Positions 1,132-25,621 are shown, numbered from the stretch's first letter. The stretch is DNA of 32,919 nt from a virus (IMGVR_UViG_2541047853_000004); one strand, 5' to 3'. Notes: generated by a model from the sequence alone, not told the origin. A program made the numbers and translations.

Positions 1132-1503
1132 TCATAAGTACCGATATGATTGCGGGGCCGTTATGTTATCACCTAATGAACTTAGATGAAGCGGTTGATC
1201 ATAGATTTTTAGATTGCCAATTTCTATAGCAAAGGCTTTTTCTTTGCTATGAAAATATGAGTCAAAAAATTGTTTGCTGATACCTGCGTATTGGCTTGTT
1301 TTTTCCCATACAATACTTGGCTTGTCTTCTATAACATCTGCAATGTCAAATTCAGCAACAACTTTACCGACAGGCATTGTTGAATAAATAACCACAGATT
1401 TTACATCCGGTTTTTTGAAAATTCCTTTTCGGAATTCAAATTTCTTTGTTCCATTAAGGATTTTTTCTACATGCTCTGGGTTAATTGACAATAATACTTT
1501 CAT
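1132..1503 (-). CDS. ASCH-domain (PUA-like fold) protein
   Basis: ORF beginning MKVLLSINPEHVEKILNGTKKFEFRKG...VVIYSTMPVGKVVAEFDIADVIED matches the ASCH pattern as I recall it. Visibly AT-rich. Preferred start is the internal ATG (rc of 1501-1503); the ORF track extends to a TTG at 1515. Overlaps the upstream gene stop. Confidence 0.6.
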   Translation of the reverse strand: MKVLLSINPEHVEKILNGTKKFEFRKGIFKKPDVKSVVIYSTMPVGKVVAEFDIADVIEDKPSIVWEKTSQYAGISKQFFDSYFHSKEKAFAIEIGNLKIYDQPLHLSSLGDNITAPQSYRYL

Positions 1504-2551
1504 TGACGCCACCAAGTTTAATAATGCTATTAAACTGTTCGTTTGTTAACTTCATGATCCCCCAGTAAGCTCGCGGGGATAATCCTACTTCAGAAATAAG
1601 TTTAGCACGATTTAGTCTTTTGGGCAAAGCAAGGTTATATGTAAAGCTTATAATATATGGGTATTTTTTTGTTCTATAAAAACTTTTAAGCTCAGATTCT
1701 GTAAAAACAGAATATCTAGAACAGTAATTTAGAAATTCTTTCTCTGTAACGAAAGAGTTTATATTTCTAACTTTTTCTACTACACATAAAGAAGTAGCAA
1801 CAGAACGGTAATATGCAGGCCCTTGATTATCGGATGTTCGGTATATAACGATTATATCGTTTGGCTTCATTAATTCAACATCTGACATGCCACAAATATA
1901 TACTTTTCTAATGCTATTTGCATATGATACATCAGCAACAACATCTGGTGACTCTGTAATTAATTTTGAGTCAGGGAATAAACGAGTATGAAATACGGGG
2001 TATATTGAAAGCAAGAATTTATTTTCACTGCCTCTGTTATTAATAAATGGATAATCTGACAGTATATCGCCCGTAAGAGCATTACTATTCATTTCTTTTA
2101 TTAGTACTCGCTCTACACCATTTTCAGATTCTTTTACTCCAATATCTATAAAGCCATAGATTTTGAATAGTCTAATTAAGTAGTCATGTTTTTCAAAAAC
2201 AGTCACATATATATTGTTAGCATTATTATCTAGAGCGTGATCGAATATTTTTTTTAAAAATCGTTGACCACGAAGAGTTCCTTTTGGATTAAATTTAAAT
2301 GTTCCAACTTTTAGATGAATACCATCAGGAATATTTGGTTTTGTATCTTCAATGATACCTACTTCTGTTTTTAGATACAAAAAACCATCAATTTTATTTT
2401 GTTCATCATAAAGGACATATGCATAATCATTTGATTTACATTTAGAATGGAACCAATCAATAAACCCATGAGCATAATCGGATTTTAAAGAGTCAAAAAA
2501 AACATCAGAAAAATCTACTTGATTAAAAGGTATGTATTTTAAGTTTTCCAT
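1481..2551 (-). CDS. hypothetical protein: N-terminal GNAT-like acetyltransferase fold fused to a C-terminal PUA/ASCH-like region
   Basis: 356 aa. N-terminal half has a GNAT-like core (LKVGTFKF...LRGQRFLKKIFDHALDNNANNIYVTVF...LFKIYGF). C-terminal half (IIVIYRTSDNQGPAYYRSVATSLCVVEKV...) resembles a PUA-like barrel. AGGA RBS lies 9 nt upstream; start is 2 bp from the upstream gene stop. Very AT-rich. Domain calls are by eye only. Confidence 0.5.
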   Translation of the reverse strand: MENLKYIPFNQVDFSDVFFDSLKSDYAHGFIDWFHSKCKSNDYAYVLYDEQNKIDGFLYLKTEVGIIEDTKPNIPDGIHLKVGTFKFNPKGTLRGQRFLKKIFDHALDNNANNIYVTVFEKHDYLIRLFKIYGFIDIGVKESENGVERVLIKEMNSNALTGDILSDYPFINNRGSENKFLLSIYPVFHTRLFPDSKLITESPDVVADVSYANSIRKVYICGMSDVELMKPNDIIVIYRTSDNQGPAYYRSVATSLCVVEKVRNINSFVTEKEFLNYCSRYSVFTESELKSFYRTKKYPYIISFTYNLALPKRLNRAKLISEVGLSPRAYWGIMKLTNEQFNSIIKLGGVNESIIVN

Positions 2552-2553
2552 GT

Positions 2554-3336
2554 TTACAATCCTATTTTAAAATCACATGATAAGCAAATTGATTTAGTTT
2601 TAGATATGACGGCGAGTGTTTTCCCCGGAGTTTGACAATTAGTACAAACATTCCAATTTTTCGGTTTTCCATCAATCTTATATATGTTGGCTAAAATATC
2701 ATCTAAAGGAAAAAATGTTTTCATCATGTCTATAATGCTTGCTGCATAGTTTTTCTTTGCCTCGACTAATTTTTGTTCAGGCATGTTTTTATCATTTATC
2801 AAGCAATGAACCAGGTTATTAAGAGGCTCTTGATATATCTCCTCTCGAAAAATTAGAAATGCACTTAAAAAGTCTTTACGTATTTCTTTATTATTACTTT
2901 TACCTAAGTGAATTACTTTATTTCTTTCTTTGCGCAAAATATCATAAATTTCATTAAAGCGCGGTGAAAGATTTCGCCCACTGATACTTTGTGCTATTCT
3001 ATGTAGCTCGGTTGCGTCTAATGTTGAACATTCGAAAAATGATTTGTTTTTATAGCAGTCTTTTACTTCTTTTAAAAGTAAATAAACACTATGCTCAGCA
3101 ATTATAGACTTTAGATATATTTCAGCAGAATTAAAGAGTATTACTAAGCCAGATTGAAAGAAACTCTCTTTTTCGGATATTAAGCGTTTCAGTCGTTGTT
3201 CTTCTGTTTCAGGTTGAGCTGGGGCTTGCAATAACTCAATGTCAGAATAAAAGTGTAAGTAGAATGTTTTAATGAAAAACTCAAGGTTCCTTTTGGCATA
3301 AAGAAGCATCTCTTCATTGTTAGGAAGGTCTGTCAT
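2554..3336 (-). CDS. hypothetical protein with HEPN-type Rx4H motif (RNKVIH) and C-terminal CxxC-x16-CxxC zinc ribbon
   Basis: 260 aa. Motif ILRKERNKVIHLG is encoded at 2908-2925 (rc AGA AAT AAA GTA ATT CAC). C-terminal CTNC...CLSC. Start ATG directly follows the cI stop (TAAATG on the minus strand) with an AAGGA RBS. Very AT-rich. Confidence 0.5.
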   Translation of the reverse strand: MTDLPNNEEMLLYAKRNLEFFIKTFYLHFYSDIELLQAPAQPETEEQRLKRLISEKESFFQSGLVILFNSAEIYLKSIIAEHSVYLLLKEVKDCYKNKSFFECSTLDATELHRIAQSISGRNLSPRFNEIYDILRKERNKVIHLGKSNNKEIRKDFLSAFLIFREEIYQEPLNNLVHCLINDKNMPEQKLVEAKKNYAASIIDMMKTFFPLDDILANIYKIDGKPKNWNVCTNCQTPGKTLAVISKTKSICLSCDFKIGL

Positions 3337-4293
3337 TTAAATATCCTTATATATACCAAAACATTTTGCTATTACATTAATATCCGCTAATAGACATTCA
3401 AAAGTTGTACTTTCATTAGATACTTTTACTTTTGCAATTGGAATTCTGGTTAGATCTCTAACACTAAATTTTCCTTCGATTTCAACTAACCATTTTCCAT
3501 CGGTTACTTCATCAAATGCTTTGTCTGCAAGATATACATTTCCTTCATCTACTATAGATATGGGGTTTTTCACCTTGCTGGGTAACATGGTTTTATCAAA
3601 AGGGAGATAATTTGTATCAAACAACATACCATTTATAACTTTTTTCCGTGTGATAGCAATAATATCGCTCTTAGCGTCTTCAAAGACGGGACCATTACCG
3701 GTTGTTAGCCACATTAATGAAGCTCCGGTTTCAAGTGCGCACTGGATGATCCAATCAGCTGGAAAGGTATCTCTCATGTAACGATTGGCTAATGTGCTTT
3801 TTGAAACACCAATGTGATCCGCTAGAGCTTGCCTTGTCTTAAATCCATAGGCGATAACTATTCGCTCGATTGCCGCTTTTCCTCCTTGATTAACCTCAAT
3901 GAGGCTCTCGTTCTTTCGGTGAGTATTGTTCTCATTTGGGGATTTTGTGTCTAAAGTGAGAGAATGAATCTCCTTACCATCTTTATGGTGGTTCTGTTCT
4001 GTATTATGTGTGACAGCCTCTACTGTGTTATCGGTACCAAATGCCAACCATTCAACCGACACGCCAGTTTCCATGCTGCAGATTATGACCCAGTCGGCAG
4101 GGAAGGTATCACGAGCATATCTGTTCGCCATTGTGCTTTGGGATATCCCTAAGTGGTTACAGAATGCTTGACGTGAAGTGAAGCCATAAGCTTTCAAAAT
4201 TCGGTCAATGACCTGTTGCCCTCCACGATTCTGCATGATTACAGTTTTCATTGCATCATCAACATGGCGAAATGTGATTTTGTGTGTTGACAT
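3337..4293 (-). CDS. cI: immunity repressor, 186 CI-type, with tandemly duplicated N-terminal HTH domain
   Basis: 318 aa. Two consecutive copies of the phage CI-repressor HTH signature (ILKAYGFTSRQAFCNHLGISQSTMANRYARDTFPADWVIICSMETGVSVEWLAFG and IVIAYGFKTRQALADHIGVSKSTLANRYMRDTFPADWIIQCALETGASLMWLTTG), then a C-terminal domain. Divergent from apl/cox. Confidence 0.8.
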   Translation of the reverse strand: MSTHKITFRHVDDAMKTVIMQNRGGQQVIDRILKAYGFTSRQAFCNHLGISQSTMANRYARDTFPADWVIICSMETGVSVEWLAFGTDNTVEAVTHNTEQNHHKDGKEIHSLTLDTKSPNENNTHRKNESLIEVNQGGKAAIERIVIAYGFKTRQALADHIGVSKSTLANRYMRDTFPADWIIQCALETGASLMWLTTGNGPVFEDAKSDIIAITRKKVINGMLFDTNYLPFDKTMLPSKVKNPISIVDEGNVYLADKAFDEVTDGKWLVEIEGKFSVRDLTRIPIAKVKVSNESTTFECLLADINVIAKCFGIYKDI

Positions 4294-6436: not shown

Positions 6437-7290
6437 GCACCATCCTGAAATGGGCGGGAAATAAAACCGCCATTATGGCAGAACTGAAAAAATACCTTCC
6501 TGCTGGCCCGCGACTGGTTGAACCTTTCGCGGGTTCCTGTGCAGTGATGATGGAGACGGATTACCCCAGCTATCTGGTTGCGGATATTAATCCTGATTTA
6601 ATCAACCTCTATAAAAAGGTTGCCGCTGATTGTGAATCGTTTATATCTCGCGCCAGAGTTTTATTTGAGAACGCAAACAGGGAGATGGCTTATTACAACA
6701 TAAGGCAGGAGTTTAATTACTCAACTGAAATTACTGATTTCATGAAAGCGGTATATTTCCTGTATCTCAATCGTCACGGTTACCGTGGTTTATGTCGCTA
6801 TAACAAGAGCGGGTATTTCAACATTCCCTACGGTAATTATAAAAATCCGTATTTCCCTGAAAAAGAAATTCGCGCATTTGCAGAGAAAGCCCAGCGGGCA
6901 ACGTTTATCTGCGCGAGCTTTGATGAAACGCTGGCGATGCTGCAGGTGGGGGATGTGGTGTATTGCGATCCGCCGTATGACGGTACGTTTTCCGGCTATC
7001 ACACTGATGGTTTCACTGAAGATGACCAGTATCACCTGGCATCCATTCTTGAACATCGGTCATCAGAAGGACATCCGGTCATTGTTTCTAACAATGACAC
7101 ATCCCTGATTCGTTCGCTGTATCGCAATTTTACTCACCACTATATCAAGGCAAAACGCAGCATCGGCGTGTCAGCTGGCGAGGGTAAATCTGCAACAGAA
7201 ATCATTGCTGTTTCCGGGCCGAGCTGCTGGTTGGGATTTGATCCTTCGCGTGGCGTGGATAGTTCTGCCGTGTACGGAGTGTGTGTATGA
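6433..7290 (+). CDS. DNA adenine methyltransferase (Dam-like, D12 class N6-MTase)
   Basis: [11 protein letters not shown] start, SAM-binding EPFAGS, catalytic DPPY ([12 protein letters not shown]). No adjacent restriction gene seen. ATG overlaps the upstream stop (ATGA). Confidence 0.85.
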
Positions 7291-9701
7291 GTCATGACGA
7301 TATGAACAATTGCAGCGGCTTTAACGAGGCCGCCGCAGCATTTTCATGGAACGGCTCGAAAAAGGCCATTAACCCTTATCTGGACCCGGCGGAAGTTGCG
7401 CCGGAGTCTGCACTTTCAAACCTGATCACTCTGTACGCTGCCGATAACGAGCAGGAACAACTGCGCCGCGAGGCACTGAGTGAGCAGGTCTGGGAGCGTT
7501 ATTTCTTTAATGAATCCCGTGATCCTGTCCAGCGCGAAATGGAGCAGGATAAGCTCATTAGCCGGGCAAAGCTGGCGCATGAGCAGCAGCGTTTTAATCC
7601 GGACATGGTCATTCTGGCGGACGTAAACGCCCAGCCTTCCCATATCAGCAAGCCGCTGATGCAACGTATTGAATACTTCAGCAGCCTGGGCAGGCCAAAG
7701 GCTTATTCCCGCTATTTGCGTGAGACGATTAAGCCATGTCTGGAGCGACTGGATTGTGTACGTGACAGTCAGCTATCTGTTTCTTTCCGTTTTATGGCAA
7801 GCCATCAAGGGCTGGAGGGGCTGCTGATCCTGCCTGAAATGAGCCAGGATCAGGTGAAACGCCTGTCCACCCTGGTAGCAGCGCATATGAGCATGTGTCT
7901 TGAGGACGCTTGTGGTGATTTGTATGCCACCGATGACGTTAAGCCAGAAGAAATCCGCAAGACATGGGAAAAGGTGGCAGCGGAAACCCTGCGTCTGGAT
8001 GTTATCCCGCCTGCGTTTGAGAAACTTCGTCGGAAAAGAAACCGCCGCAAACCAGTGCCCTATGAACTCATCCCGGGTTCGCTGGCGCGTATGTTGTGTG
8101 CCGACTGGTGGTATCGGAAATTATGGAAGATGCGTTGCGAATGGCGGGAAGAGCAGTTGCGTGCTGTCTGCCTGGTCAGCAAAAAAGCATCCCCCTATGT
8201 CAGCTATGAAGCCGTGATGCATAAACGTGAGCAGCGCCGTAAGTCGCTGGAGTTTTTTCGTTCTCATGAACTGGTGAACGAAGACGGCGACACGCTGGAT
8301 ATGGAAGATGTGGTAAACGCCAGCAGCAGCAACCCGGCGCATCGCCGCAATGAGATGATGGCCTGTGTTAAAGGTCTGGAGCTTATCGCGGAAATGCGCG
8401 GTGACTGCGCCGTTTTCTACACCATTACCTGTCCGTCACGTTTCCATTCCACGCTCAATAACGGCAGACCCAACCCGACCTGGAAAAACGCGACGGTAAG
8501 ACAAAGCAGCGATTATCTGGTCGGTATGTTTGCTGCATTTCGTAAGGCGATGCACAAAGCCGGGTTGCGCTGGTATGGCGTGCGGGTGGCTGAGCCGCAT
8601 CACGACGGCACAGTTCACTGGCACCTGTTGTGTTTCATGCGCAAAAAAGACCGCCGCGCCATTACTGCATTGTTGCGTAAGTTTGCTATCCGTGAAGACC
8701 GCGAGGAGCTGGGCAATAACACGGGGCCGCGCTTTAAGTCTGAGCTGATTAACCCGCGCAAAGGAACGCCGACAAGCTACATAGCGAAATACATCAGTAA
8801 GAACATTGACGGGCGTGGTCTGGCTGGCGAGATCAGCAAGGAAACGGGTAAATCTCTTCGTGATAACGCTGAATACGTGAATGCCTGGGCGTCTTTGCAT
8901 CGTGTTCAGCAATTCCGCTTCTTTGGTATTCCGGGGCGTCAGGCTTACCGTGAACTGCGATTGCTGGCTGGTCAGGCGGCAAGGCAGCAGGGTGACAAAA
9001 AAGCAGGTGTGCCGGTACTGGATAACCCGCGCCTTGATGCCATTCTGGCTGCTGCTGATGCTGGTTGTTTTGCCACCTATATCATGAAGCAGGGAGGTGT
9101 ACTGGTTCCCCGTAAATATCACCTCATCAGAACTGCTTATGAAATTAACGAAGAGCCGACCGCCTATGGCGATCACGGTATTCGTATTTATGGCATCTGG
9201 TCACCCATTGCAGAGGGCAAGATCTGCACTCATGCAGTGAAGTGGAAAATGGTTCGTAAGGCCGTTGACGTTCAGGAGGCGGCAGCCGACCAGGGCGCTT
9301 GCGCCCCTTGGACTCGTGGCAATAACTGTCCCCTTGCTGAAAATTTGAACCAACAGGAGAAAGATAAATCAGCTGATGGGGACCCCAGAACGGACATTAC
9401 CAGCATGGATGACAAGGAGTTGCACGATTACCTGCACAGTATGAGCAAAAAAGAGCGCCGGGAACTGGCAGCAAGGTTACGCCTGGTGAAACCGAAACGG
9501 CGTAAAGACTACAAACAGCGAATTACAGACCATCAGCGACTGCAGCTCGTGTATGAGCTGAAGTCCAGAGGATTTGATGGCAGCGAGAAAGAGGTCGATT
9601 TACTCCTTCGCGGAGGCAGTATTCCGTCAGGAGCAGGCCTGCGTATCTTCTATCGGAACCAGCGTTTGCAGGAAGATGATCAGTGGCGGAACCTGTATTA
9701 A
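7287..9701 (+). CDS. A: replication initiation endonuclease, P2 gpA-like (HUH rolling-circle)
   Basis: About 805 aa with HUH motif ([10 protein letters not shown]) and tyrosine motif (YIAKYISKN). Start ATGA overlaps the Dam stop. Confidence 0.85.
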
Positions 9702-9854: not shown

Positions 9855-10043
9855 ATGCAGGACTATTTTTTGGAGTCTTTGAAGCTCCAGCGCATTGATT
9901 TTTTTCTTAAGCTTGTAGCGGCTAGTGAGTGTAGTGATGAAGAGAAGGGGCTGGCTCTGCAGTGGGTTTCTGAATTGACTGATGAACTCATGGCAAAAAT
10001 CAGAACCCACGAATACAACCGCTCAATGGATGTCATCAGCTGA
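9855..10043 (+). CDS. small SOS-controlled protein, possible Tum-like antirepressor module
   Basis: 62-aa ORF (MQDYFLESLK...) with AGGAGG RBS at 9845-9850, directly downstream of the LexA box. Function inferred from position only. Confidence 0.45.
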   Translation: MQDYFLESLKLQRIDFFLKLVAASECSDEEKGLALQWVSELTDELMAKIRTHEYNRSMDVIS

Positions 10044-10053
10044 GGTGACTTTT

Positions 10054-10287
10054 ATGCGCATTGAAATAATGATCGATAAAGAGCAGAAGATTAGCCAGTC
10101 TACCCTGGACGCCCTTGAATCCGAGCTTTACCGCAATCTGCGCCCCCTGTATCCCAAAACGGTAATTCGCATTCGCAAAGGTAGCTCTAACGGTGTGGAA
10201 CTAACCGGACTGCAACTGGACGAAGAAAGAAAACAAGTGATGAAAATTATGCAGAAGGTGTGGGAAGACGACAGCTGGCTGCATTAA
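10054..10287 (+). CDS. DinI-family protein
   Basis: 77 aa; MRIEIMIDKEQKISQSTLDALESELYRNLRPLYPKTVIRIRKGSSNGVELTGLQLDEERKQVMKIMQKVWEDDSWLH parallels E. coli DinI as recalled. In the LexA-box operon. Confidence 0.7.
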   Translation: MRIEIMIDKEQKISQSTLDALESELYRNLRPLYPKTVIRIRKGSSNGVELTGLQLDEERKQVMKIMQKVWEDDSWLH

Positions 10288-10422
10288 GAAACGTTGCTGG
10301 CGTCTGAACTTGCTTCTGGCGTCAGCAAGGTTGAACAACGAGCCCTTGCGAGGCGTTAACTCTGTAGTGCATGTCTATGCCGCATGAGATCGCATGATCG
10401 TTTGAGGATCGTTTTTGCTAAG

Positions 10423-10447
10423 GCCCGCCAGAACTGGCGGGCTTTTG
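10423..10447 (+). terminator. rho-independent terminator after the tum/dinI-like operon
   Basis: GCCCGCCAG-AA-CTGGCGGGC perfect 9-bp GC-rich stem followed by TTTTG. Confidence 0.6.
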
Positions 10448-10491
10448 CGTAGATTATGCAGGTGCATGAAAACCACTACATAAAGCGGGCA

Positions 10492-10510
10492 GGCGTGGCG
10501 GGGATACGAG
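10492..10510. other. candidate cos cohesive-end sequence
   Basis: GGCGTGGCGGGGATACGAG; the first 13 nt match my recollection of the 186/P2 cohesive end (GGCG[T/A]GGCGGGGAAAGCA). Location near the terminase-proximal end fits. Recollection not verifiable here. Confidence 0.3.
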
Positions 10511-10599
10511 CGCGCGCTGATGGGGGGCGCAGTGCTTTTGGCATAGTTATGAGGTAGAATTTCAAAATACTTTTTAGCGCTGTTGGAGGTATAGACAAA

Positions 10600-11145
10600 A
10601 TGGACGTTATAACTGGAGTTGCAGAGTTTTTTCGAAAAGTACCTGCAGCATTTCTTGTGGCTATTACATGTGTTTTAGGTCTTATACTTTTTCTGCCAGA
10701 CTCTTTGGCAGTAAAAGTGGCTGTTGATGGCTTTCGTAATGAGTATAGGATTTTTATTGGACCTGCATTTTTACTGTCTGTATCTTATTTAGTTGCAAGA
10801 GTCTATCTCTCTTTCTATGACTTACTTGGTGAAAGGCAGGCTAAGAAGGTACGCACTTCCTACCTTGAGAAGCTAACAGCAGAAGAAAAAGGATATTTAA
10901 AGTCTTATATTACCGAAGGTGTTAATTCACTTATGTGTGGGCCTGAGGATGGGGTCATGGGGGGACTTGTGGCTAAGGGGATTACTTATAGAGCCACCAG
11001 TGTTGGGGATATGATCTACGGTTTTGCTTTCAACTTACAGCCATGGGCGCGTGAACATTTAGAGAAAAATAGTCATTTATTAGATGGGGCTATTGGGCGT
11101 GCAATGACTCCAAGAGAAAAATTAAACTTTAGATTGGGACGCTAA
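10600..11145 (+). CDS. AT-rich accessory membrane protein (two predicted N-terminal TM helices), candidate superinfection-exclusion/abortive-infection protein
   Basis: 181 aa with GGAGG RBS. Hydrophobic segments AAFLVAITCVLGLILFLP and IFIGPAFLLSVSYLVARVYL. Visibly lower G+C than flanking genes. Sits between the A/cos region and Q. Confidence 0.5.
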   Translation: MDVITGVAEFFRKVPAAFLVAITCVLGLILFLPDSLAVKVAVDGFRNEYRIFIGPAFLLSVSYLVARVYLSFYDLLGERQAKKVRTSYLEKLTAEEKGYLKSYITEGVNSLMCGPEDGVMGGLVAKGITYRATSVGDMIYGFAFNLQPWAREHLEKNSHLLDGAIGRAMTPREKLNFRLGR

Positions 11146-11174
11146 CCAGTCACACATTACCAATGTGTGACTGG
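11146..11174. terminator. perfect 13-bp palindrome between convergent genes (probable terminator)
   Basis: CCAGTCACACATT-ACC-AATGTGTGACTGG directly after the 10600-11145 stop and before the Q stop; T-rich stretch follows on the plus strand. Confidence 0.4.
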
Positions 11175-11189
11175 TGGTGGTTATTTCTT

Positions 11190-12224
11190 TTATTCAATGT
11201 CAAATTTATATGGTTCAAAAGAAATAACCTTTTCCCCCAACCACTCATTTAGTTCTTCGAGTCTTTTTTGTAGCGGTATTAACTCATTACGGACAAAGAC
11301 GCGGCTGGCTTTTTCCACATCACCAAAGCCGCCGGTATTGTTGGGAATAATGCCCATCATCTGCGGCGGTACGCGGTGTGCTGCCATCATGTCATCGCGG
11401 CTCACGTTCTTAATGTTCAGAAATTCATCCTTTGCTGCAACCTCAGACAGTGGGATGATCTGGATGCCGTCTTTTTTACCGTTGGGCGAATACATAAACA
11501 GGTTGCGGAAGTTGCCCGGACCTTTGGCGCTTTTCATCGCGTTGCGGAGGTTGTTCACATCCTCCTGGTTCTGCGCGGCGTCAGTCATATACATGATGAA
11601 GCCTGCATGGCTGCCGTTGATGTAATACTTACGGCGGAACAGCGTGGCGGACTCGTTGAGCAGGGCTGACGGAATGGCAGAAAGATAACCGGGCAGGCCG
11701 TAGATCTCCTGATTAATATCCGGTTCCATCAGATGAAAAATGCTGCCTTTCGTGAACTGATACGGCTGGGTTGTCATACCGTATTGCACAAACCAGTAGG
11801 TATCCAGGTCTAATCCGCGTCGGGTGTATTTTGCCAGCGCAGGTTCAAGGGCGATCACTTCACCGAAGCGGTTCGTGCGTTTCTCCAGATAGGCATTGCC
11901 AAATACCAGATAGTCCTGCACAAAACGCGAAAAAGCCTGCTGGCTGAGCAGAGGATGAGGGATATAGGTACTGGTCAGAATGTTACACTTTACTGCAATC
12001 GGGGAACTGTGATGCACGGCAGCGCGGAAGGTGCGCGCCAGTCCGTTAAAGCTGACGGGAGGCTCATACCAGCGGTCCATCTGTACGCATTCCACATAGT
12101 CCAGCAGTTCACGGCGGTCCAGAACAGGAACGGGATCGCCGAAGCTGAATGCTTCGGCTGTAGTTTGACTTTTAAGCTGGATCTGATTCGTCGCCGCAGC
12201 GCGGTTCTTCTTACTCTTTCCCAT
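11190..12224 (-). CDS. Q: portal protein (P2 gpQ-like)
   Basis: 344-aa ORF at the conserved position, leftward and upstream-adjacent to terminase P. Start ATG overlaps the P stop (TGATG). Confidence 0.85.
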   Translation of the reverse strand: MGKSKKNRAAATNQIQLKSQTTAEAFSFGDPVPVLDRRELLDYVECVQMDRWYEPPVSFNGLARTFRAAVHHSSPIAVKCNILTSTYIPHPLLSQQAFSRFVQDYLVFGNAYLEKRTNRFGEVIALEPALAKYTRRGLDLDTYWFVQYGMTTQPYQFTKGSIFHLMEPDINQEIYGLPGYLSAIPSALLNESATLFRRKYYINGSHAGFIMYMTDAAQNQEDVNNLRNAMKSAKGPGNFRNLFMYSPNGKKDGIQIIPLSEVAAKDEFLNIKNVSRDDMMAAHRVPPQMMGIIPNNTGGFGDVEKASRVFVRNELIPLQKRLEELNEWLGEKVISFEPYKFDIE

Positions 12225-13990
12225 CAAAAAATCTCCACAATATTGCTGGTATTGGCGGATTCGCCCTGCAGCGGTTCGTTAAACAGTGCGTGCATCGTTG
12301 CCCAAGCCAGATCGGCGTGGCTGGCTTCTTCGCTGCGGCTGGCTTCATAGGTCGGGCGGTTGCCACTGGCGGTGGTGGCGCGACGGATTGCCATGAATGA
12401 CTGCGCAATGTCGGTGTGCCCGGCGTCAAACTCCAGACGGCGGTGGCTGATAATGTCGTAGGCCTTGAGTACCAGGGCGTTTTTAACGTTGGGGTTGTAG
12501 ACAAACTCCCGGACGGCAGGAAAGAACGCTTTCACGTTCTCATAAACCCCGTGACCAACGCCGGTTGAGTCGATACCGATGTATGTCACGTTGTACTGTT
12601 CAGTCAGTTTTTTGATGGCGTTAGCCTGGGCGCGGAAGTCCATCCCGCGCCACTGGTGACGCTCAAGAATGCGGAACTTACCGCCCGGCACGGCTGGCGG
12701 TGCCACCACCACGCACCCGGCGCTGTCGCCGTTTTGCGTACCTTTTGCCGGGTCATAACCGATCCACACTTCGCGCCAGCCAAACGGGCGCAGGGCCAGT
12801 GCATGAAAGTCGGTCCAGACTTCCCAACTGTCCACCATGCACGCCTGCAGCTCGCTGAGCGGGAACACGGACGCGAGATCGTCAACAAACTCGCACATCA
12901 GCAGGTTCTGGTATTCGTCCGGGCTGTACTCCAAGCGTAGCTGGTCGAGGTCGAACAGGTTACAGCCGCCGCGCACCGCATCTTCCACGGTGACTATCTG
13001 GCGGTATTGCCCGTCTGCGCACAGCAGGCCGGGGGCCAGATTGCTGTGGGACAGGTCGATGTCCACCTTATCGGCTTTGTTGCGCCCACGGTTGAACAGC
13101 GCACCGGACCAGAACGGATAAGCACTGTGTGTCAGGCTGGATGGCGTGGAAAAATAGGTTTGTCGCCATTTTTTGTGAATAGCCATACCGGAAGCCACTT
13201 TGCGCAGCTCCTGGAATTTCGGTATCCAGAAATATTCATCCAGATACAGGTTGCCGTGGTAACTCTGGGCCGTGCGGGCATTGGTGCCGAGGAAATACAG
13301 TGTGGCTCCGTTAGGAAGCACCATCGGATCGCCTTTCAGCTCCACCTCGACTTCTTTGGCGAAGTCGATGATGTACTGTTTAAAGACGTGAGCCTGTGCC
13401 TTACTGGCAGAAAGGAAAATCTGGTTACGTCCGGTAAGCAGGGCGTCAATCAGGGCTTCACGGGCAAAGTAAAAGGTCGCACCGATCTGGCGTGACTTCA
13501 GCAGGTTGCGGATGCGGTTGGTTTTTCCGGCTTCCCACCAGTGGCGCTGGTAGTTGAACATGGAGGAATGGAAGATTTCTTCCAGCTTCTCAATCTGTTC
13601 ATCGGTGAAAACATTCTTTTCCGGCTGACGGCGCGGGCCTTTGTTGCGGTTGGCGACGTTAGGGTTTAAGTCGGCTTCGTTGCCGCCATTGTTAAACTTG
13701 CCGATCCGCGCATGGCGCTCCGACTGGCGCGCCAGCAGGTCAATTTCTTTAAAGTCTTTCCCTTCTTTGTGCTCCTTCATGATGAGCTGGCAGTAGCGTG
13801 CGGCGGTGGTGAGCTGCATCTGATCCAGCGGCCCATAGTCACCCCACTTGTCGCGTTTTTTCCAGCTGTGAACGGTTGCAACTTTCTCGCCCAGCATTTC
13901 AGCAATGCGGGCTACGCGGTATCCCTGAAAGTACAGCAGCATGGCCTGTCGACGGGGATCGAGATCTGCGGGTGTCAGTGTGGTGTTCAT
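12224..13990 (-). CDS. P: terminase large (ATPase) subunit, P2 gpP-like
   Basis: 588-aa ORF, leftward, divergent from the O-N-M capsid operon as in P2/186. Confidence 0.85.
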   Translation of the reverse strand: MNTTLTPADLDPRRQAMLLYFQGYRVARIAEMLGEKVATVHSWKKRDKWGDYGPLDQMQLTTAARYCQLIMKEHKEGKDFKEIDLLARQSERHARIGKFNNGGNEADLNPNVANRNKGPRRQPEKNVFTDEQIEKLEEIFHSSMFNYQRHWWEAGKTNRIRNLLKSRQIGATFYFAREALIDALLTGRNQIFLSASKAQAHVFKQYIIDFAKEVEVELKGDPMVLPNGATLYFLGTNARTAQSYHGNLYLDEYFWIPKFQELRKVASGMAIHKKWRQTYFSTPSSLTHSAYPFWSGALFNRGRNKADKVDIDLSHSNLAPGLLCADGQYRQIVTVEDAVRGGCNLFDLDQLRLEYSPDEYQNLLMCEFVDDLASVFPLSELQACMVDSWEVWTDFHALALRPFGWREVWIGYDPAKGTQNGDSAGCVVVAPPAVPGGKFRILERHQWRGMDFRAQANAIKKLTEQYNVTYIGIDSTGVGHGVYENVKAFFPAVREFVYNPNVKNALVLKAYDIISHRRLEFDAGHTDIAQSFMAIRRATTASGNRPTYEASRSEEASHADLAWATMHALFNEPLQGESANTSNIVEIF

Positions 13991-24616: not shown

Positions 24617-25036
24617 TCAGTACCCTATTACAAAATATCGGCCGTAACATGCTACCTCGTCACTACTGCGCGTTGCTGCCGCGCCCACTGACTCAGTATT
24701 AAGACAGATTGCTGTAGCAGTGATAGTGGTTCGGCTCGTTGTACTTATTGCATACACCGTCGGGCGGGTGATCTGCGTTGTATTATCATGTGTTGCATAT
24801 GCCTGCATCGCGGCAGTCGGAAAAGCAATCGGCAGATTAATATCCACAGTGCCGCCTGATCTCAGAGGTGTCAGTATTCCCCATTGCATAATAAACGTCT
24901 GGCGGACACCGCTAATTAATATTGGGAATGTGGCGTATCCCGCTGAACCAAGACTACCTGTCGCAACACCTGCGGCACTGATATCTCCCAAACCAACGTT
25001 TAAGAAAATGCAGAGGTAACGGCTAACTGGCATCAT
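24617..25036 (-). CDS. alternative tail-fibre C-terminal segment (silent cassette, joined to H on inversion)
   Basis: 139-aa ORF on the opposite strand whose 5' end carries the same TTGGTTTGGGAG core as the H crossover point. Typical of Gin/Cin/Pin-type fibre switches. Confidence 0.6.
   Translation of the reverse strand: MMPVSRYLCIFLNVGLGDISAAGVATGSLGSAGYATFPILISGVRQTFIMQWGILTPLRSGGTVDINLPIAFPTAAMQAYATHDNTTQITRPTVYAISTTSRTTITATAICLNTESVGAAATRSSDEVACYGRYFVIGY
24985..24996 (-). repeat. right inverted repeat / candidate invertase crossover site
   Basis: CTCCCAAACCAA on the plus strand, reverse complement of 23481-23492; located beside the invertase gene. Confidence 0.55.
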
Positions 25037-25063
25037 CCCCGGTATTTATTCAGGGGATTGATC

Positions 25064-25621
25064 ATGCTTATTGGCTATGTACGCGTGTCAACAAATGACC
25101 AGAACACCGATTTGCAACGTAATGCACTGAACTGCGCGGGATGTGAGCGGATTTTTGAGGATAAAATCAGTGGCACTAAGTCCGACAGACCGGGGCTGAA
25201 AAAACTGCTCAGGACACTATCGGCAGGAGACACGCTGGTCGTCTGGAAGCTGGACAGGTTGGGGCGCAGTATGCGGCATCTTGTTACGCTGATAGAAGAG
25301 TTGCGCCAGCGTGGCGTGAATTTCCGAAGCCTGACTGACAGTATTGATACCAGTACCCCAATGGGCCGTTTCTTTTTTCATGTCATGGGTGCCCTGGCTG
25401 AAATGGAACGCGAACTGATAGTTGAACGCACTATGGCAGGGCTGGCTGCAGCTCGTGCCAAAGGCAGAGTAGGTGGACGCCGTCCTAAGTTGACCACCGA
25501 ACAGTGGGCACAGATTGGACGTTTACTCGAGGCCGGAGAATCAAGACAGCGTATTGCACTGATTTTTGACGTGGGCGTTGCTACCATTTATAGAAAATTT
25601 CCGGCGAATAAGAGCAATTAA
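25064..25621 (+). CDS. serine DNA invertase (Gin/Hin/Cin/Pin family)
   Basis: MLIGYVRVSTNDQNTDLQRNAL catalytic-serine N-terminus, resolvase-like core, C-terminal HTH (GVATIYRKF). Adjacent to the invertible fibre cassette. Confidence 0.85.
   Translation: MLIGYVRVSTNDQNTDLQRNALNCAGCERIFEDKISGTKSDRPGLKKLLRTLSAGDTLVVWKLDRLGRSMRHLVTLIEELRQRGVNFRSLTDSIDTSTPMGRFFFHVMGALAEMERELIVERTMAGLAAARAKGRVGGRRPKLTTEQWAQIGRLLEAGESRQRIALIFDVGVATIYRKFPANKSN

What the first reader, a model, noticed from the sequence alone, without database searches (positions are those of the whole stretch)
10600..11145. AT-rich membrane-protein gene between the cos/replication end and portal gene Q: candidate superinfection-exclusion or abortive-infection determinant
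A 181-aa ORF with a strong RBS, two predicted N-terminal TM helices and a soluble C-terminal domain. It is noticeably AT-richer than its neighbours and is flanked upstream by a terminator (10423-10447) and downstream by a perfect palindrome (11146-11174). The A-to-Q interval of P2-like phages is an established hotspot for anti-phage cargo (tin/old in P2). Size and topology resemble SieB-type exclusion proteins, but I cannot confirm homology.
Basis: partly seen in the sequence, partly recalled or inferred. Interest (0 to 1): 0.6.

Follow-up and report, generated by a model that had tools for sequence, protein, structure and literature searches.

The report
SieB-family exclusion gene in P2-like prophage
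The 181-aa membrane protein is a real but divergent member of the known SieB phage-exclusion family, sitting in the known defence-gene hotspot of a P2-like E. coli prophage; public databases already annotate it that way, so it is an ordinary, still untested, anti-phage cargo gene.

Summary
Pfam PF14163 (SieB) matches at 88 bits (cutoff 26) over the whole model, comparable to P22 SieB (101) and lambda SieB (103). The protein aligns end to end with both, though at only 16-22% identity. RefSeq already names the identical protein (WP_021548667.1) "superinfection exclusion B family protein". Rousset et al. 2022 list it as "SieB" in their table of the P2 gpA-gpQ defence hotspot, apparently without testing it. 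Close relatives carry other cargo in the same slot, and only about 23 of 1,276 E. coli genomes with this cos region carry a sieB there. Alleles are old and under strong purifying selection (dN/dS 0.04-0.07). A high-confidence AlphaFold model (pLDDT 94.8) shows an N-terminal helix, a membrane hairpin, a long stalk and a cytoplasmic winged-helix-like domain. This subfamily lacks the internal Esc start used by P22. The most likely function is prophage-expressed abortive infection; this is inferred, not shown. Low novelty.

The parts
10417..10448 (+). Terminator-like GC-rich hairpin plus UUUU that ends the A-orf-dinI transcription unit, upstream of cos
   Evidence: Inverted repeat I2. RNA fold dG -23.7 kcal/mol, z -5.2. 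Conserved in relatives.
10492..10510 (.). cos cohesive-end equivalent (GGCGTGGCGGGGATACGAG); the surrounding cos region is identical in relatives up to about 10517
   Evidence: Aligns to P2's annotated cosR/cosL 19-mer. Fuzzy match. Identical block in four loci.
10518..11176 (+). Variable cargo cassette (the cos-to-Q sub-slot), occupied here by sieB and its control regions, 40.6% GC
   Evidence: Homology to other P2-like phages stops at window 10517-10520. 813R9 diverges there and carries a Ymh-domain gene instead. GC value.
10546..10562 (+). Conserved block GTTATGAGGTAGAATTT containing a candidate -10 hexamer (TAGAAT, 10555-10560); candidate sieB promoter with no good -35
   Evidence: Conserved in 3 of 4 sieB cassettes although the flanks differ. 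Not picked up by the strict sigma-70 scan. This is inference only.
10586..10590 (+). Shine-Dalgarno GGAGG, 10 nt upstream of the ATG
   Evidence: Sequence. A GAGG/AGG motif is conserved in the other alleles.
10600..11145 (+). sieB-family gene, 181 aa. Modelled parts: N-terminal amphipathic helix (2-13), TM1 (15-33), short periplasmic loop (34-50), TM2 continuing into a basic cytoplasmic stalk (43-90), winged-helix-like C-terminal domain (92-161), C-terminal helix (171-180)
   Evidence: PF14163 at 88.4 bits. Identical to WP_021548667.1 'superinfection exclusion B family protein'. AF2 pLDDT 94.8. dN/dS 0.04-0.07.
11145..11175 (+). Perfect 14-bp-stem hairpin followed by a U-rich tract: the sieB terminator, lying between convergent sieB and Q, at the position of P2's tQ
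   Evidence: dG -25.6, z -6.6. A hairpin is kept at this position, with sequence changes, in the other alleles. P2 tQ annotation.
11190..12227 (-). Portal protein gene Q (context; right boundary of the hotspot)
   Evidence: ORF list. PGAP 'phage portal protein'.
7287..9701 (+). Replication endonuclease gene A (context; left boundary of the gpA-gpQ hotspot)
   Evidence: PGAP annotation of the identical locus (window coordinate = L001 coordinate - 1551).
10054..10287 (+). DinI-like gene (context); together with the 62-aa phrog_698 ORF at 9855-10043 it forms the conserved part of the A-to-cos interval
   Evidence: Pfam DinI 80 bits and PHROG 189/698. PGAP annotation.

Best explanation
The gene is a divergent member of the SieB (PF14163) family, carried as a single-gene cargo cassette in the cos-to-Q sub-slot of the gpA-gpQ defence hotspot of a 186/PSP3-like P2-family prophage of E. 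coli. The most likely function is as follows. The prophage expresses it from its own weak promoter during lysogeny. The protein inserts into the inner membrane as an N-in/C-in helical hairpin. When a superinfecting phage reaches the middle of its lytic programme, the protein is triggered through its cytoplasmic winged-helix-like domain, probably by a phage protein rather than DNA. It then shuts down the cell via the membrane, so macromolecular synthesis stops and no progeny are made. This is abortive infection, as described for P22 SieB. What is shown: family membership, architecture, hotspot location, variable occupancy and purifying selection. What is inferred: expression in the lysogen, the anti-phage phenotype, the trigger and the membrane-based killing step.
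For: Family membership: PF14163 at 88.4 bits, E 4.5e-25, full model coverage, cutoff 26. P22 and lambda SieB score 101 and 103 bits on the same model. The three align end to end with shared TM1, TM2, basic stalk and LTxxE..L motif. All 195 and 340 homologs found carry PF14163. The best BFVD structural match is the P22 sieB product, probability 0.99.
Existing annotation: RefSeq calls the identical protein 'superinfection exclusion B family protein'. Rousset et al. 2022 Table S lists WP_021548667 as SieB in this hotspot.
Hotspot: PMC9122126 defines the cos-proximal gpA-gpQ locus as a defence hotspot. Here the slot holds a Ymh protein in 813R9. AIPR, DUF4145 or an unknown gene accompany sieB in other relatives. 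Only about 23 of 1,276 E. coli genomes with this cos region have a sieB there.
Selection: dN/dS is 0.04-0.07.
Phenotype precedent: P22 SieB stops macromolecular synthesis midway through the lytic cycle of superinfecting phages (PMC10461980).
Other contexts: distant homologs sit as single genes in small islands with TA and defence-like genes.
Confidence: 0.72

Rival explanations
1. It is a true superinfection-exclusion protein acting at DNA entry, like P22 SieA, T4 Imm/Sp or HK97 gp15. In this reading the inner-membrane hairpin blocks genome injection by related phages instead of aborting infection after entry.
For: It is a small inner-membrane protein with two TM helices and a short periplasmic loop. 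It is prophage cargo. The family name itself says 'superinfection exclusion'.
Against: The only characterised family members act after injection, midway through the lytic cycle (PMC10461980). The conserved, well-folded part of the protein is cytoplasmic: 28 invariant columns lie mostly in residues 92-171. The periplasmic loop is only about 17 residues. Pfam shows no similarity to SieA or Imm-type families.
Confidence: 0.12
2. It is a membrane-tethered winged-helix regulator, or a lysogenic-conversion 'moron' that benefits the host in some way unrelated to phage defence. Examples would be sequestering or releasing a transcription factor, or sensing envelope stress.
For: The C-terminal domain resembles MarR/ArsR winged-helix regulators. 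The gene is low-GC cargo with its own terminator. No defence database model hits it.
Against: The winged-helix core is net acidic (-2; family median -1), and the helix at the recognition position (118-125, GVMGGLVA) carries no charge, which is atypical for DNA binding. Fold scores are weak. Family membership with two genetically proven exclusion genes is strong. Its location and its neighbours in other genomes are defence-type.
Confidence: 0.08
3. It is a phage-autonomous function needed by the carrier P2-like phage itself, such as a packaging, cos-proximal, lysis-timing or holin-like accessory.
For: It is immediately adjacent to cos and convergent with the portal/terminase operon. It is a two-TM small protein, like some holins.
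Against: It is absent from most close relatives, which carry unrelated genes or nothing in this slot. P2 itself has only 187 nt here. The prophage already has its own holin, lysozyme and spanin cassette. Homologs occur outside prophages as isolated island genes.
Confidence: 0.04

Closest known systems
SieB of Salmonella phage P22 (192 aa; PF14163)
   Same: Same Pfam family with full-length coverage. Same size and order of parts: N-terminal segment, two TM helices, basic stalk, LTxxE..L motif and C-terminal domain. Best viral structural match. Prophage-borne single gene with its own transcription unit.
   Different: About 16% identity, with no pairwise BLASTP hit. P22 sieB sits in the lambdoid PL/N region, not next to cos. 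P22 makes Esc from an internal start at codon 25 under control of the sas antisense RNA. Here the equivalent position is Ala21, with no conserved start codon or SD. Only 6 of 77 subfamily members have a Met there, against 40 of 44 lambda/P22/YopH-type members.
SieB of phage lambda (about 184 aa; PF14163)
   Same: Same family. 22% identity over 143 residues, collinear, BLASTP E = 0.006. Same LTEE motif at the start of the C-domain.
   Different: It lies between ral and N in a lambdoid prophage. It has Met residues just before TM1, like P22. It belongs to a different subfamily.
YopH of Bacillus prophage SPbeta (PF14163, uncharacterised)
   Same: Closest annotated phage homolog by tblastn: 27.8% identity over 92% of the query, E 4e-14. 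It shares the NLQPWAR..L motif.
   Different: Gram-positive host, embedded in a long yop operon. No functional data.
Cargo of the P2 gpA-gpQ defence hotspot (old/tin of P2; systems of Rousset et al. 2022)
   Same: Same hotspot, next to cos. Variable occupancy. This exact protein is listed there as 'SieB'.
   Different: old and tin lie on the other side of cos, at the right end of the packaged genome, whereas sieB lies between cos and Q at the left end. sieB is unrelated in sequence to Old (an AAA/OLD nuclease) and to Tin. It is not among the systems discussed as validated in the main text.
RexB/RexA-type and other membrane-acting abortive-infection systems
   Same: Works-like analogy only. These are prophage-expressed inner-membrane proteins whose activation halts macromolecular synthesis in infected cells.
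   Different: No sequence or family relationship was detected. SieB is a single gene with no conserved partner. Membrane depolarisation by SieB has not been shown.
MarR/ArsR-type winged-helix domains

Membership tests
SieB (Pfam PF14163, superinfection exclusion protein B) | Significant full-length match to the family profile above the curated cutoff | tested here: met
   88.4 bits, E 4.5e-25, cutoff 26, profile positions 2-146 of 147. P22 and lambda SieB score 101 and 103 bits on the same model.
SieB (Pfam PF14163, superinfection exclusion protein B) | Size of about 165-195 aa, with two N-terminal TM helices followed by a cytoplasmic C-terminal domain, collinear with P22 and lambda SieB | tested here: met
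   Hydropathy. Alignment A2. AF2 model at pLDDT 94.8. Basic stalk after TM2. 1,224 family clusters, nearly all 160-200 aa.
SieB (Pfam PF14163, superinfection exclusion protein B) | Predicted structure similar to that of a characterised SieB | tested here: inconclusive
   The top BFVD hit is the P22 sieB product Q38660 with probability 0.99, but E = 0.028 and TM = 0.37. No SieB structure exists in the PDB.
SieB (Pfam PF14163, superinfection exclusion protein B) | Prophage-borne gene expressed in the lysogen from its own promoter | tested here: inconclusive
   It is prophage-borne and bracketed by terminators. Alleles share a conserved TAGAAT block, but no consensus sigma-70 promoter was found. 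No expression data are available.
SieB (Pfam PF14163, superinfection exclusion protein B) | Aborts the lytic growth of superinfecting phages after injection (macromolecular synthesis stops mid-cycle) | not testable with these tools
   The phenotype is known for P22 SieB (PMC10461980). Testing it here needs plaque and physiology assays.
SieB (Pfam PF14163, superinfection exclusion protein B) | Self-immunity through Esc (in-frame internal start just before TM1) switched by the sas antisense RNA. This is a P22-clade feature, not necessarily family-defining. | tested here: not met
   P22 esc starts at codon 25. Here the equivalent residue is Ala21. GTG-20 has no SD and is GTA in another allele. 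A Met occurs there in 6 of 77 subfamily members against 40 of 44 lambda/P22/YopH-type members. No antisense promoter-like site was found.
Cargo of the P2-like gpA-gpQ (cos-proximal) defence hotspot | Located between replication gene A and portal gene Q, next to cos, in a P2-like prophage | tested here: met
   PGAP context. cos aligned to P2's cosR. Hotspot definition in PMC9122126.
Cargo of the P2-like gpA-gpQ (cos-proximal) defence hotspot | Variable occupancy among otherwise near-identical relatives | tested here: met
   Homology breaks at 10517-10520. The slot holds a Ymh gene in 813R9. AIPR, DUF4145 or an unknown gene accompany sieB in others. About 23 of 1,276 genomes carry a sieB here.
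Cargo of the P2-like gpA-gpQ (cos-proximal) defence hotspot | Experimentally validated anti-phage activity | not testable with these tools
   It is listed as 'SieB' in supplementary file 6 of PMC9122126 but never mentioned in the main text. It was apparently not tested.
Known or candidate defence systems in PADLOC-DB v2 | Match to any PADLOC protein model | tested here: not met
   No hit at E of 1 or better.
MarR/ArsR winged-helix DNA-binding regulators | Significant sequence or structure match, and a basic DNA-recognition helix | tested here: not met

The most novel reading that the evidence does not exclude
This P2-borne SieB subfamily may be a self-contained, Esc-less variant. It is about 180 aa, 50-60% identical across Vibrio, Pseudomonas, Halomonas and Enterobacteria, and often stands alone in defence-type islands. 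In this reading a membrane-tethered, non-DNA-binding winged-helix domain senses a specific phage protein. The short N-terminal amphipathic helix, which is the part missing from P22's inhibitor Esc, is the element that converts sensing into membrane failure. If so, the high-confidence model would give the first structural and mechanistic handle on SieB exclusion, whose mechanism has been unexplained since the 1970s. The P2-like carrier would escape simply because it lacks the trigger.
Probability: 0.25. Interest if true: 0.45.

Novelty: already known. Interest (0 to 1): 0.2.

Why it matters
It matters modestly. It confirms that a sequence-only reader can correctly flag defence cargo in the P2 cos-proximal hotspot. 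It also shows that the slot has two sub-sites: upstream of cos, where P2 has old/tin, and between cos and Q, where sieB sits. SieB is one of the oldest genetically defined exclusion systems, yet its mechanism is still unknown and it is missing from PADLOC. A compact, highly conserved, Esc-less subfamily with a confident structural model is a convenient entry point for testing that mechanism. The gene itself is already annotated and catalogued, so it is not a discovery.

Tried and rejected
- PADLOC, PHROGs and NCBIfam scans of the protein gave no usable hits.
- Pairwise BLASTP to P22 SieB found nothing, and only E = 0.006 to lambda SieB. Family membership therefore rests on profile evidence.
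- The first AlphaFold run, with 40 same-subfamily sequences, gave a poor C-domain (pLDDT 40-60) and was not used for fold search.
- A profile search with alignment A2 returned only the same subfamily among the 120 listed hits. I had to seed a third search with YopH, P22 and lambda SieB to get the diversity that raised pLDDT to 94.8.
- A profile search of PDB sequences found only chance hits (Old Yellow Enzyme, E 0.15).
- The strict sigma-70 scan found no promoter on either strand in 10250-11300, so neither the sieB promoter nor a sas-like antisense promoter could be located. The TAGAAT block is only a candidate.
- I considered and rejected an Esc-like internal start at GTG-20: it has no SD and is not conserved.
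- I considered and rejected a DNA-binding role for the winged-helix domain, because its core is acidic and uncharged.
- I considered and rejected a packaging or lysis role, because the gene is absent from most relatives.
- A literature search found no mechanistic or structural work on SieB after the 1993 Ranade and Poteete papers in the searchable library.

Full report

Yes. Window 10600-11145 (+) is a 181-codon ATG ORF. It coincides exactly with the PGAP gene call in E. coli genomes that carry a 100%-identical locus.

- **Composition.** The ORF is 40.3% GC with GC3 30%. The window is 51.4% GC and the neighbouring genes A, Q and P are 50.6-56.4%.
- **RBS.** A GGAGG lies 10 nt upstream of the ATG.
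- **Hydrophobic segments.** Kyte-Doolittle windows give a strong segment at about 15-33 (up to 2.7) and a weaker one at about 51-69 (1.66).
- **Upstream hairpin.** 10417-10448 has a GC-rich 11-bp stem plus UUUU, dG -23.7 kcal/mol and z -5.2 against shuffles.
- **Downstream palindrome.** It has perfect 14-nt arms (11145-11158 and 11162-11175), dG -25.6 and z -6.6.
- **Selection.** Four alleles of the gene from different Enterobacteria give dN/dS of 0.04-0.07 with saturated synonymous sites. It is therefore a real protein-coding gene under strong constraint.

**2. Where exactly does it sit?**

The window is a 186/PSP3-like P2-family (Peduoviridae) prophage of E. coli, integrated next to rcdA/ybjJ. 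It runs from the integrase through the CI/CII/Fil regulators, Dam, replication gene A, a 62-aa ORF and dinI, then sieB, then portal Q, terminase P and the capsid, lysis and tail genes.

P2's annotated 19-nt cohesive end (cosR/cosL) and the sequence before it align to window 10492-10510. The gene therefore lies between cos and the 3' end of Q, making it the first gene inside the left end of the packaged genome.

- In P2 that gap is 187 nt and holds only the tQ terminator. Here it is about 698 nt.
- P2's own exclusion genes old and tin lie on the other side of cos.
- Megablast against 50,697 phage records shows that homology to other P2-like phages stops at window 10517-10520.
- A three-way alignment shows identity through cos. 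After that, phage vB_EcoM-813R9 diverges and carries a Hypoth_Ymh-domain gene in this slot.

**3. What is it?**

Pfam gives PF14163 (SieB, super-infection exclusion protein B) at 88.4 bits, E 4.5e-25, covering model positions 2-146 of 147 against a gathering cutoff of 26. The two genetically characterised SieB proteins score 101.4 bits (P22) and 103.5 bits (lambda) on the same model.

- **Pairwise similarity is low.** BLASTP to lambda SieB gives 22% identity, E 0.006; to P22 SieB it gives nothing.
- **The multiple alignment is collinear end to end.** It shares TM1, TM2, a basic linker and an LTxxE..L motif that opens the C-terminal domain.
- **No other library has a model.** PADLOC, PHROGs and NCBIfam give no hit.
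- **Closest annotated phage homolog.** In the phage collection this is SPbeta YopH, at 27.8% identity.
- **Family size.** The family comprises 1,224 clusters at 50% identity with E of 1e-3 or better in an exhaustive search of 1.84 billion representatives. Nearly all are 160-200 aa and match full length.
- **Own subfamily.** The window protein belongs to a tight subfamily of about 180 aa that is 50-60% identical across Vibrio, Pseudomonas, Halomonas, Aeromonas, Methylophaga and others. It has 28 invariant columns, mostly in the C-terminal domain.

**4. Is it already known?**

Yes, at the level of annotation. RefSeq names the identical protein (WP_021548667.1) "superinfection exclusion B family protein" in about 20 complete E. 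coli genomes. A 76%-identical allele is named "super-infection exclusion protein B" in three more.

Rousset et al. 2022 (PMC9122126) define the cos-proximal gpA-gpQ locus of P2-like phages as a defence hotspot with 1,650 gene arrangements. Their supplementary table lists [quoted passage not shown], which is exactly the three genes of this window. SieB is never mentioned in their main text, nor in that of the 2026 follow-up, PMC13586616. It therefore appears catalogued but untested.

**5. Comparison across relatives**

- The 67-78%-identical homologs, in a Scandinavium-like contig and in Citrobacter, are always the gene immediately adjacent to and convergent with portal Q in P2-like prophages.
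- In those relatives the sub-slot upstream of cos holds different cargo each time: an AIPR protein, a DUF4145 protein or a 288-aa unknown.
- A 70%-identical homolog lies in a plasmid-like context with ProQ, PerC and SLT genes.
- More distant subfamily members in Vibrio, Pseudomonas and Halomonas are single genes in small variable islands. These sit beside integrase remnants, HipBA, CcdAB, an SMC-like gene or a Schlafen-type helicase, with no conserved partner.
- Only about 23 of 1,276 E. coli genomes sharing this cos region carry a sieB here.
- All alleles keep 40-41% GC.
- The upstream regions share the cos core and a conserved GTTATGAGGTAGAATTT block, which is a candidate -10 (TAGAAT at 10555-10560). 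There is no good -35, and the strict sigma-70 scan finds nothing.
- A hairpin is retained downstream in the other alleles, although its sequence changes.

**6. Structure**

AlphaFold with 40 same-subfamily sequences modelled only the membrane hairpin well. After adding lambda-, P22- and YopH-type relatives (alignment A4 of 121 sequences), the model reached mean pLDDT 94.8 and pTM 0.74. The modelled elements are:

| Residues | Element |
|---|---|
| 2-13 | N-terminal helix |
| 16-31 | TM1 |
| 34-39 | short helix in the loop |
| 43-90 | one long helix: TM2 plus a basic cytoplasmic stalk |
| 94-104 | helix |
| 110-113 | strand |
| 118-125 | helix |
| 129-137 and 141-146 | beta-hairpin |
| 148-161 and 171-180 | helices |

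The charge distribution (stalk net +2; family median +4) supports an N-in/C-in topology.

- Foldseek against the PDB gives nothing significant, but almost all top hits are MarR family.
- In the viral library the top hit is the P22 sieB product, with probability 0.99 and E 0.028.
- No PDB entry is related by sequence.

The C-domain is therefore winged-helix-like. Its core is net acidic (-2; family median -1), and the helix at the recognition position (GVMGGLVA) carries no charge. I infer that it binds protein rather than DNA.

**7. Difference from P22 SieB**

P22 protects itself with Esc, an in-frame product starting at codon 25 just before TM1. Synthesis of Esc is switched on by the sas antisense RNA.

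- Lambda SieB also has Met residues at that position.
- In the window protein the equivalent residue is Ala21. The nearby GTG-20 has no SD and is GTA in another allele.
- Across the family alignment, a Met occurs in that segment in 40 of 44 lambda/P22/YopH-type sequences but in only 6 of 77 members of this subfamily.
- No antisense promoter-like site is present.

This subfamily therefore appears to lack the Esc/sas device. The segment that Esc lacks corresponds to the conserved N-terminal helix (consensus ..LTG.ADYFRKIP). By inference, that helix is needed for the killing activity.

**8. Most likely mechanism (confidence about 0.7)**

The gene is a prophage-expressed, single-gene abortive-infection determinant. 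The protein sits in the inner membrane. Its cytoplasmic winged-helix-like domain senses a product of a superinfecting phage, and the membrane part then shuts down the cell. This matches the P22 SieB phenotype, in which macromolecular synthesis ceases midway through the lytic cycle (PMC10461980).

- **Shown:** family membership, architecture, location, variable occupancy and purifying selection.
- **Inferred:** expression in the lysogen, the phenotype, the trigger and the membrane effect.

Rival explanations and my confidence in each:

| Rival | Confidence |
|---|---|
| An entry-level exclusion protein | 0.12 |
| A membrane-tethered regulator or non-defence moron | 0.08 |
| A phage-autonomous packaging or lysis accessory, contradicted by its absence from most relatives | 0.04 |

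**9. Verdict**

The gene is a bona fide, divergent SieB-family member in a published defence hotspot. It is already annotated as such in RefSeq and listed in a published table. Novelty is low and interest is 0.2.

Three points are modestly new:
- the sub-slot position between cos and Q;
- the apparent absence of Esc/sas in this subfamily;
- a confident structural model showing a membrane-tethered winged-helix-like domain.

Together these give a testable handle on the still-unknown SieB mechanism.

Noticed in passing
window 1132-3336 (-): There are three co-oriented genes between the integrase (1-1053) and the CI repressor (3337-4236). An ASCH-domain protein matches PADLOC PDC-M11B (161 bits). 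A 355-aa protein matches PDC-M11A (433 bits, E 2.7e-130). A 259-aa protein has a weak DUF3644 hit. This is a second, candidate-defence cargo locus in the same prophage, in the int-cI slot.
   Followed up: partly
window 24617-25621: A serine recombinase (Resolvase + HTH_7, 179 bits; 25058-25621, +) lies next to an oppositely oriented 138-aa ORF with a Gp53-like tail-fibre C-terminus (24617-25036, -). This looks like a Gin/Cin-type invertible tail-fibre host-range switch.
   Followed up: partly
L002 5032-5772; L014 3794-5581; L015-L017 4776-5642; L003 3898-5049: The gpA-gpQ hotspot has two sub-slots. Upstream of cos, relatives carry DUF4145, AIPR (PF10592) or a 288-aa unknown alongside a sieB downstream of cos. 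In phage 813R9 the cos-Q slot holds a 383-aa Hypoth_Ymh protein instead of sieB.
   Followed up: partly
alignment A4 (family-wide), columns for window residues 14-24: A Met at the position of P22's Esc start, just before TM1, is present in 40 of 44 lambda/P22/YopH-type SieB proteins but in only 6 of 77 members of the window's subfamily. This suggests that Esc-type self-immunity is clade-specific.
   Followed up: partly
L018 1-6546: A 70%-identical SieB homolog (P0006) lies at the end of a contig with ProQ/FinO, PerC and a 687-aa SLT-domain gene. This is a plasmid- or conjugative-element-like context rather than a P2-like prophage.
   Followed up: no
window 3337-4293 (-): The longest CI ORF (317 aa) shows two stretches matching the Phage_CI_repr HTH domain plus Phage_CI_C, whereas PGAP aa. 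This is an unusually long, possibly duplicated-HTH CI repressor.
   Followed up: no
window 9855-10287 (+): A conserved 62-aa ORF (phrog_698, unknown function) and a DinI-like gene lie between gene A and cos. They are present in nearly all relatives and form the constant part of the hotspot.
   Followed up: no
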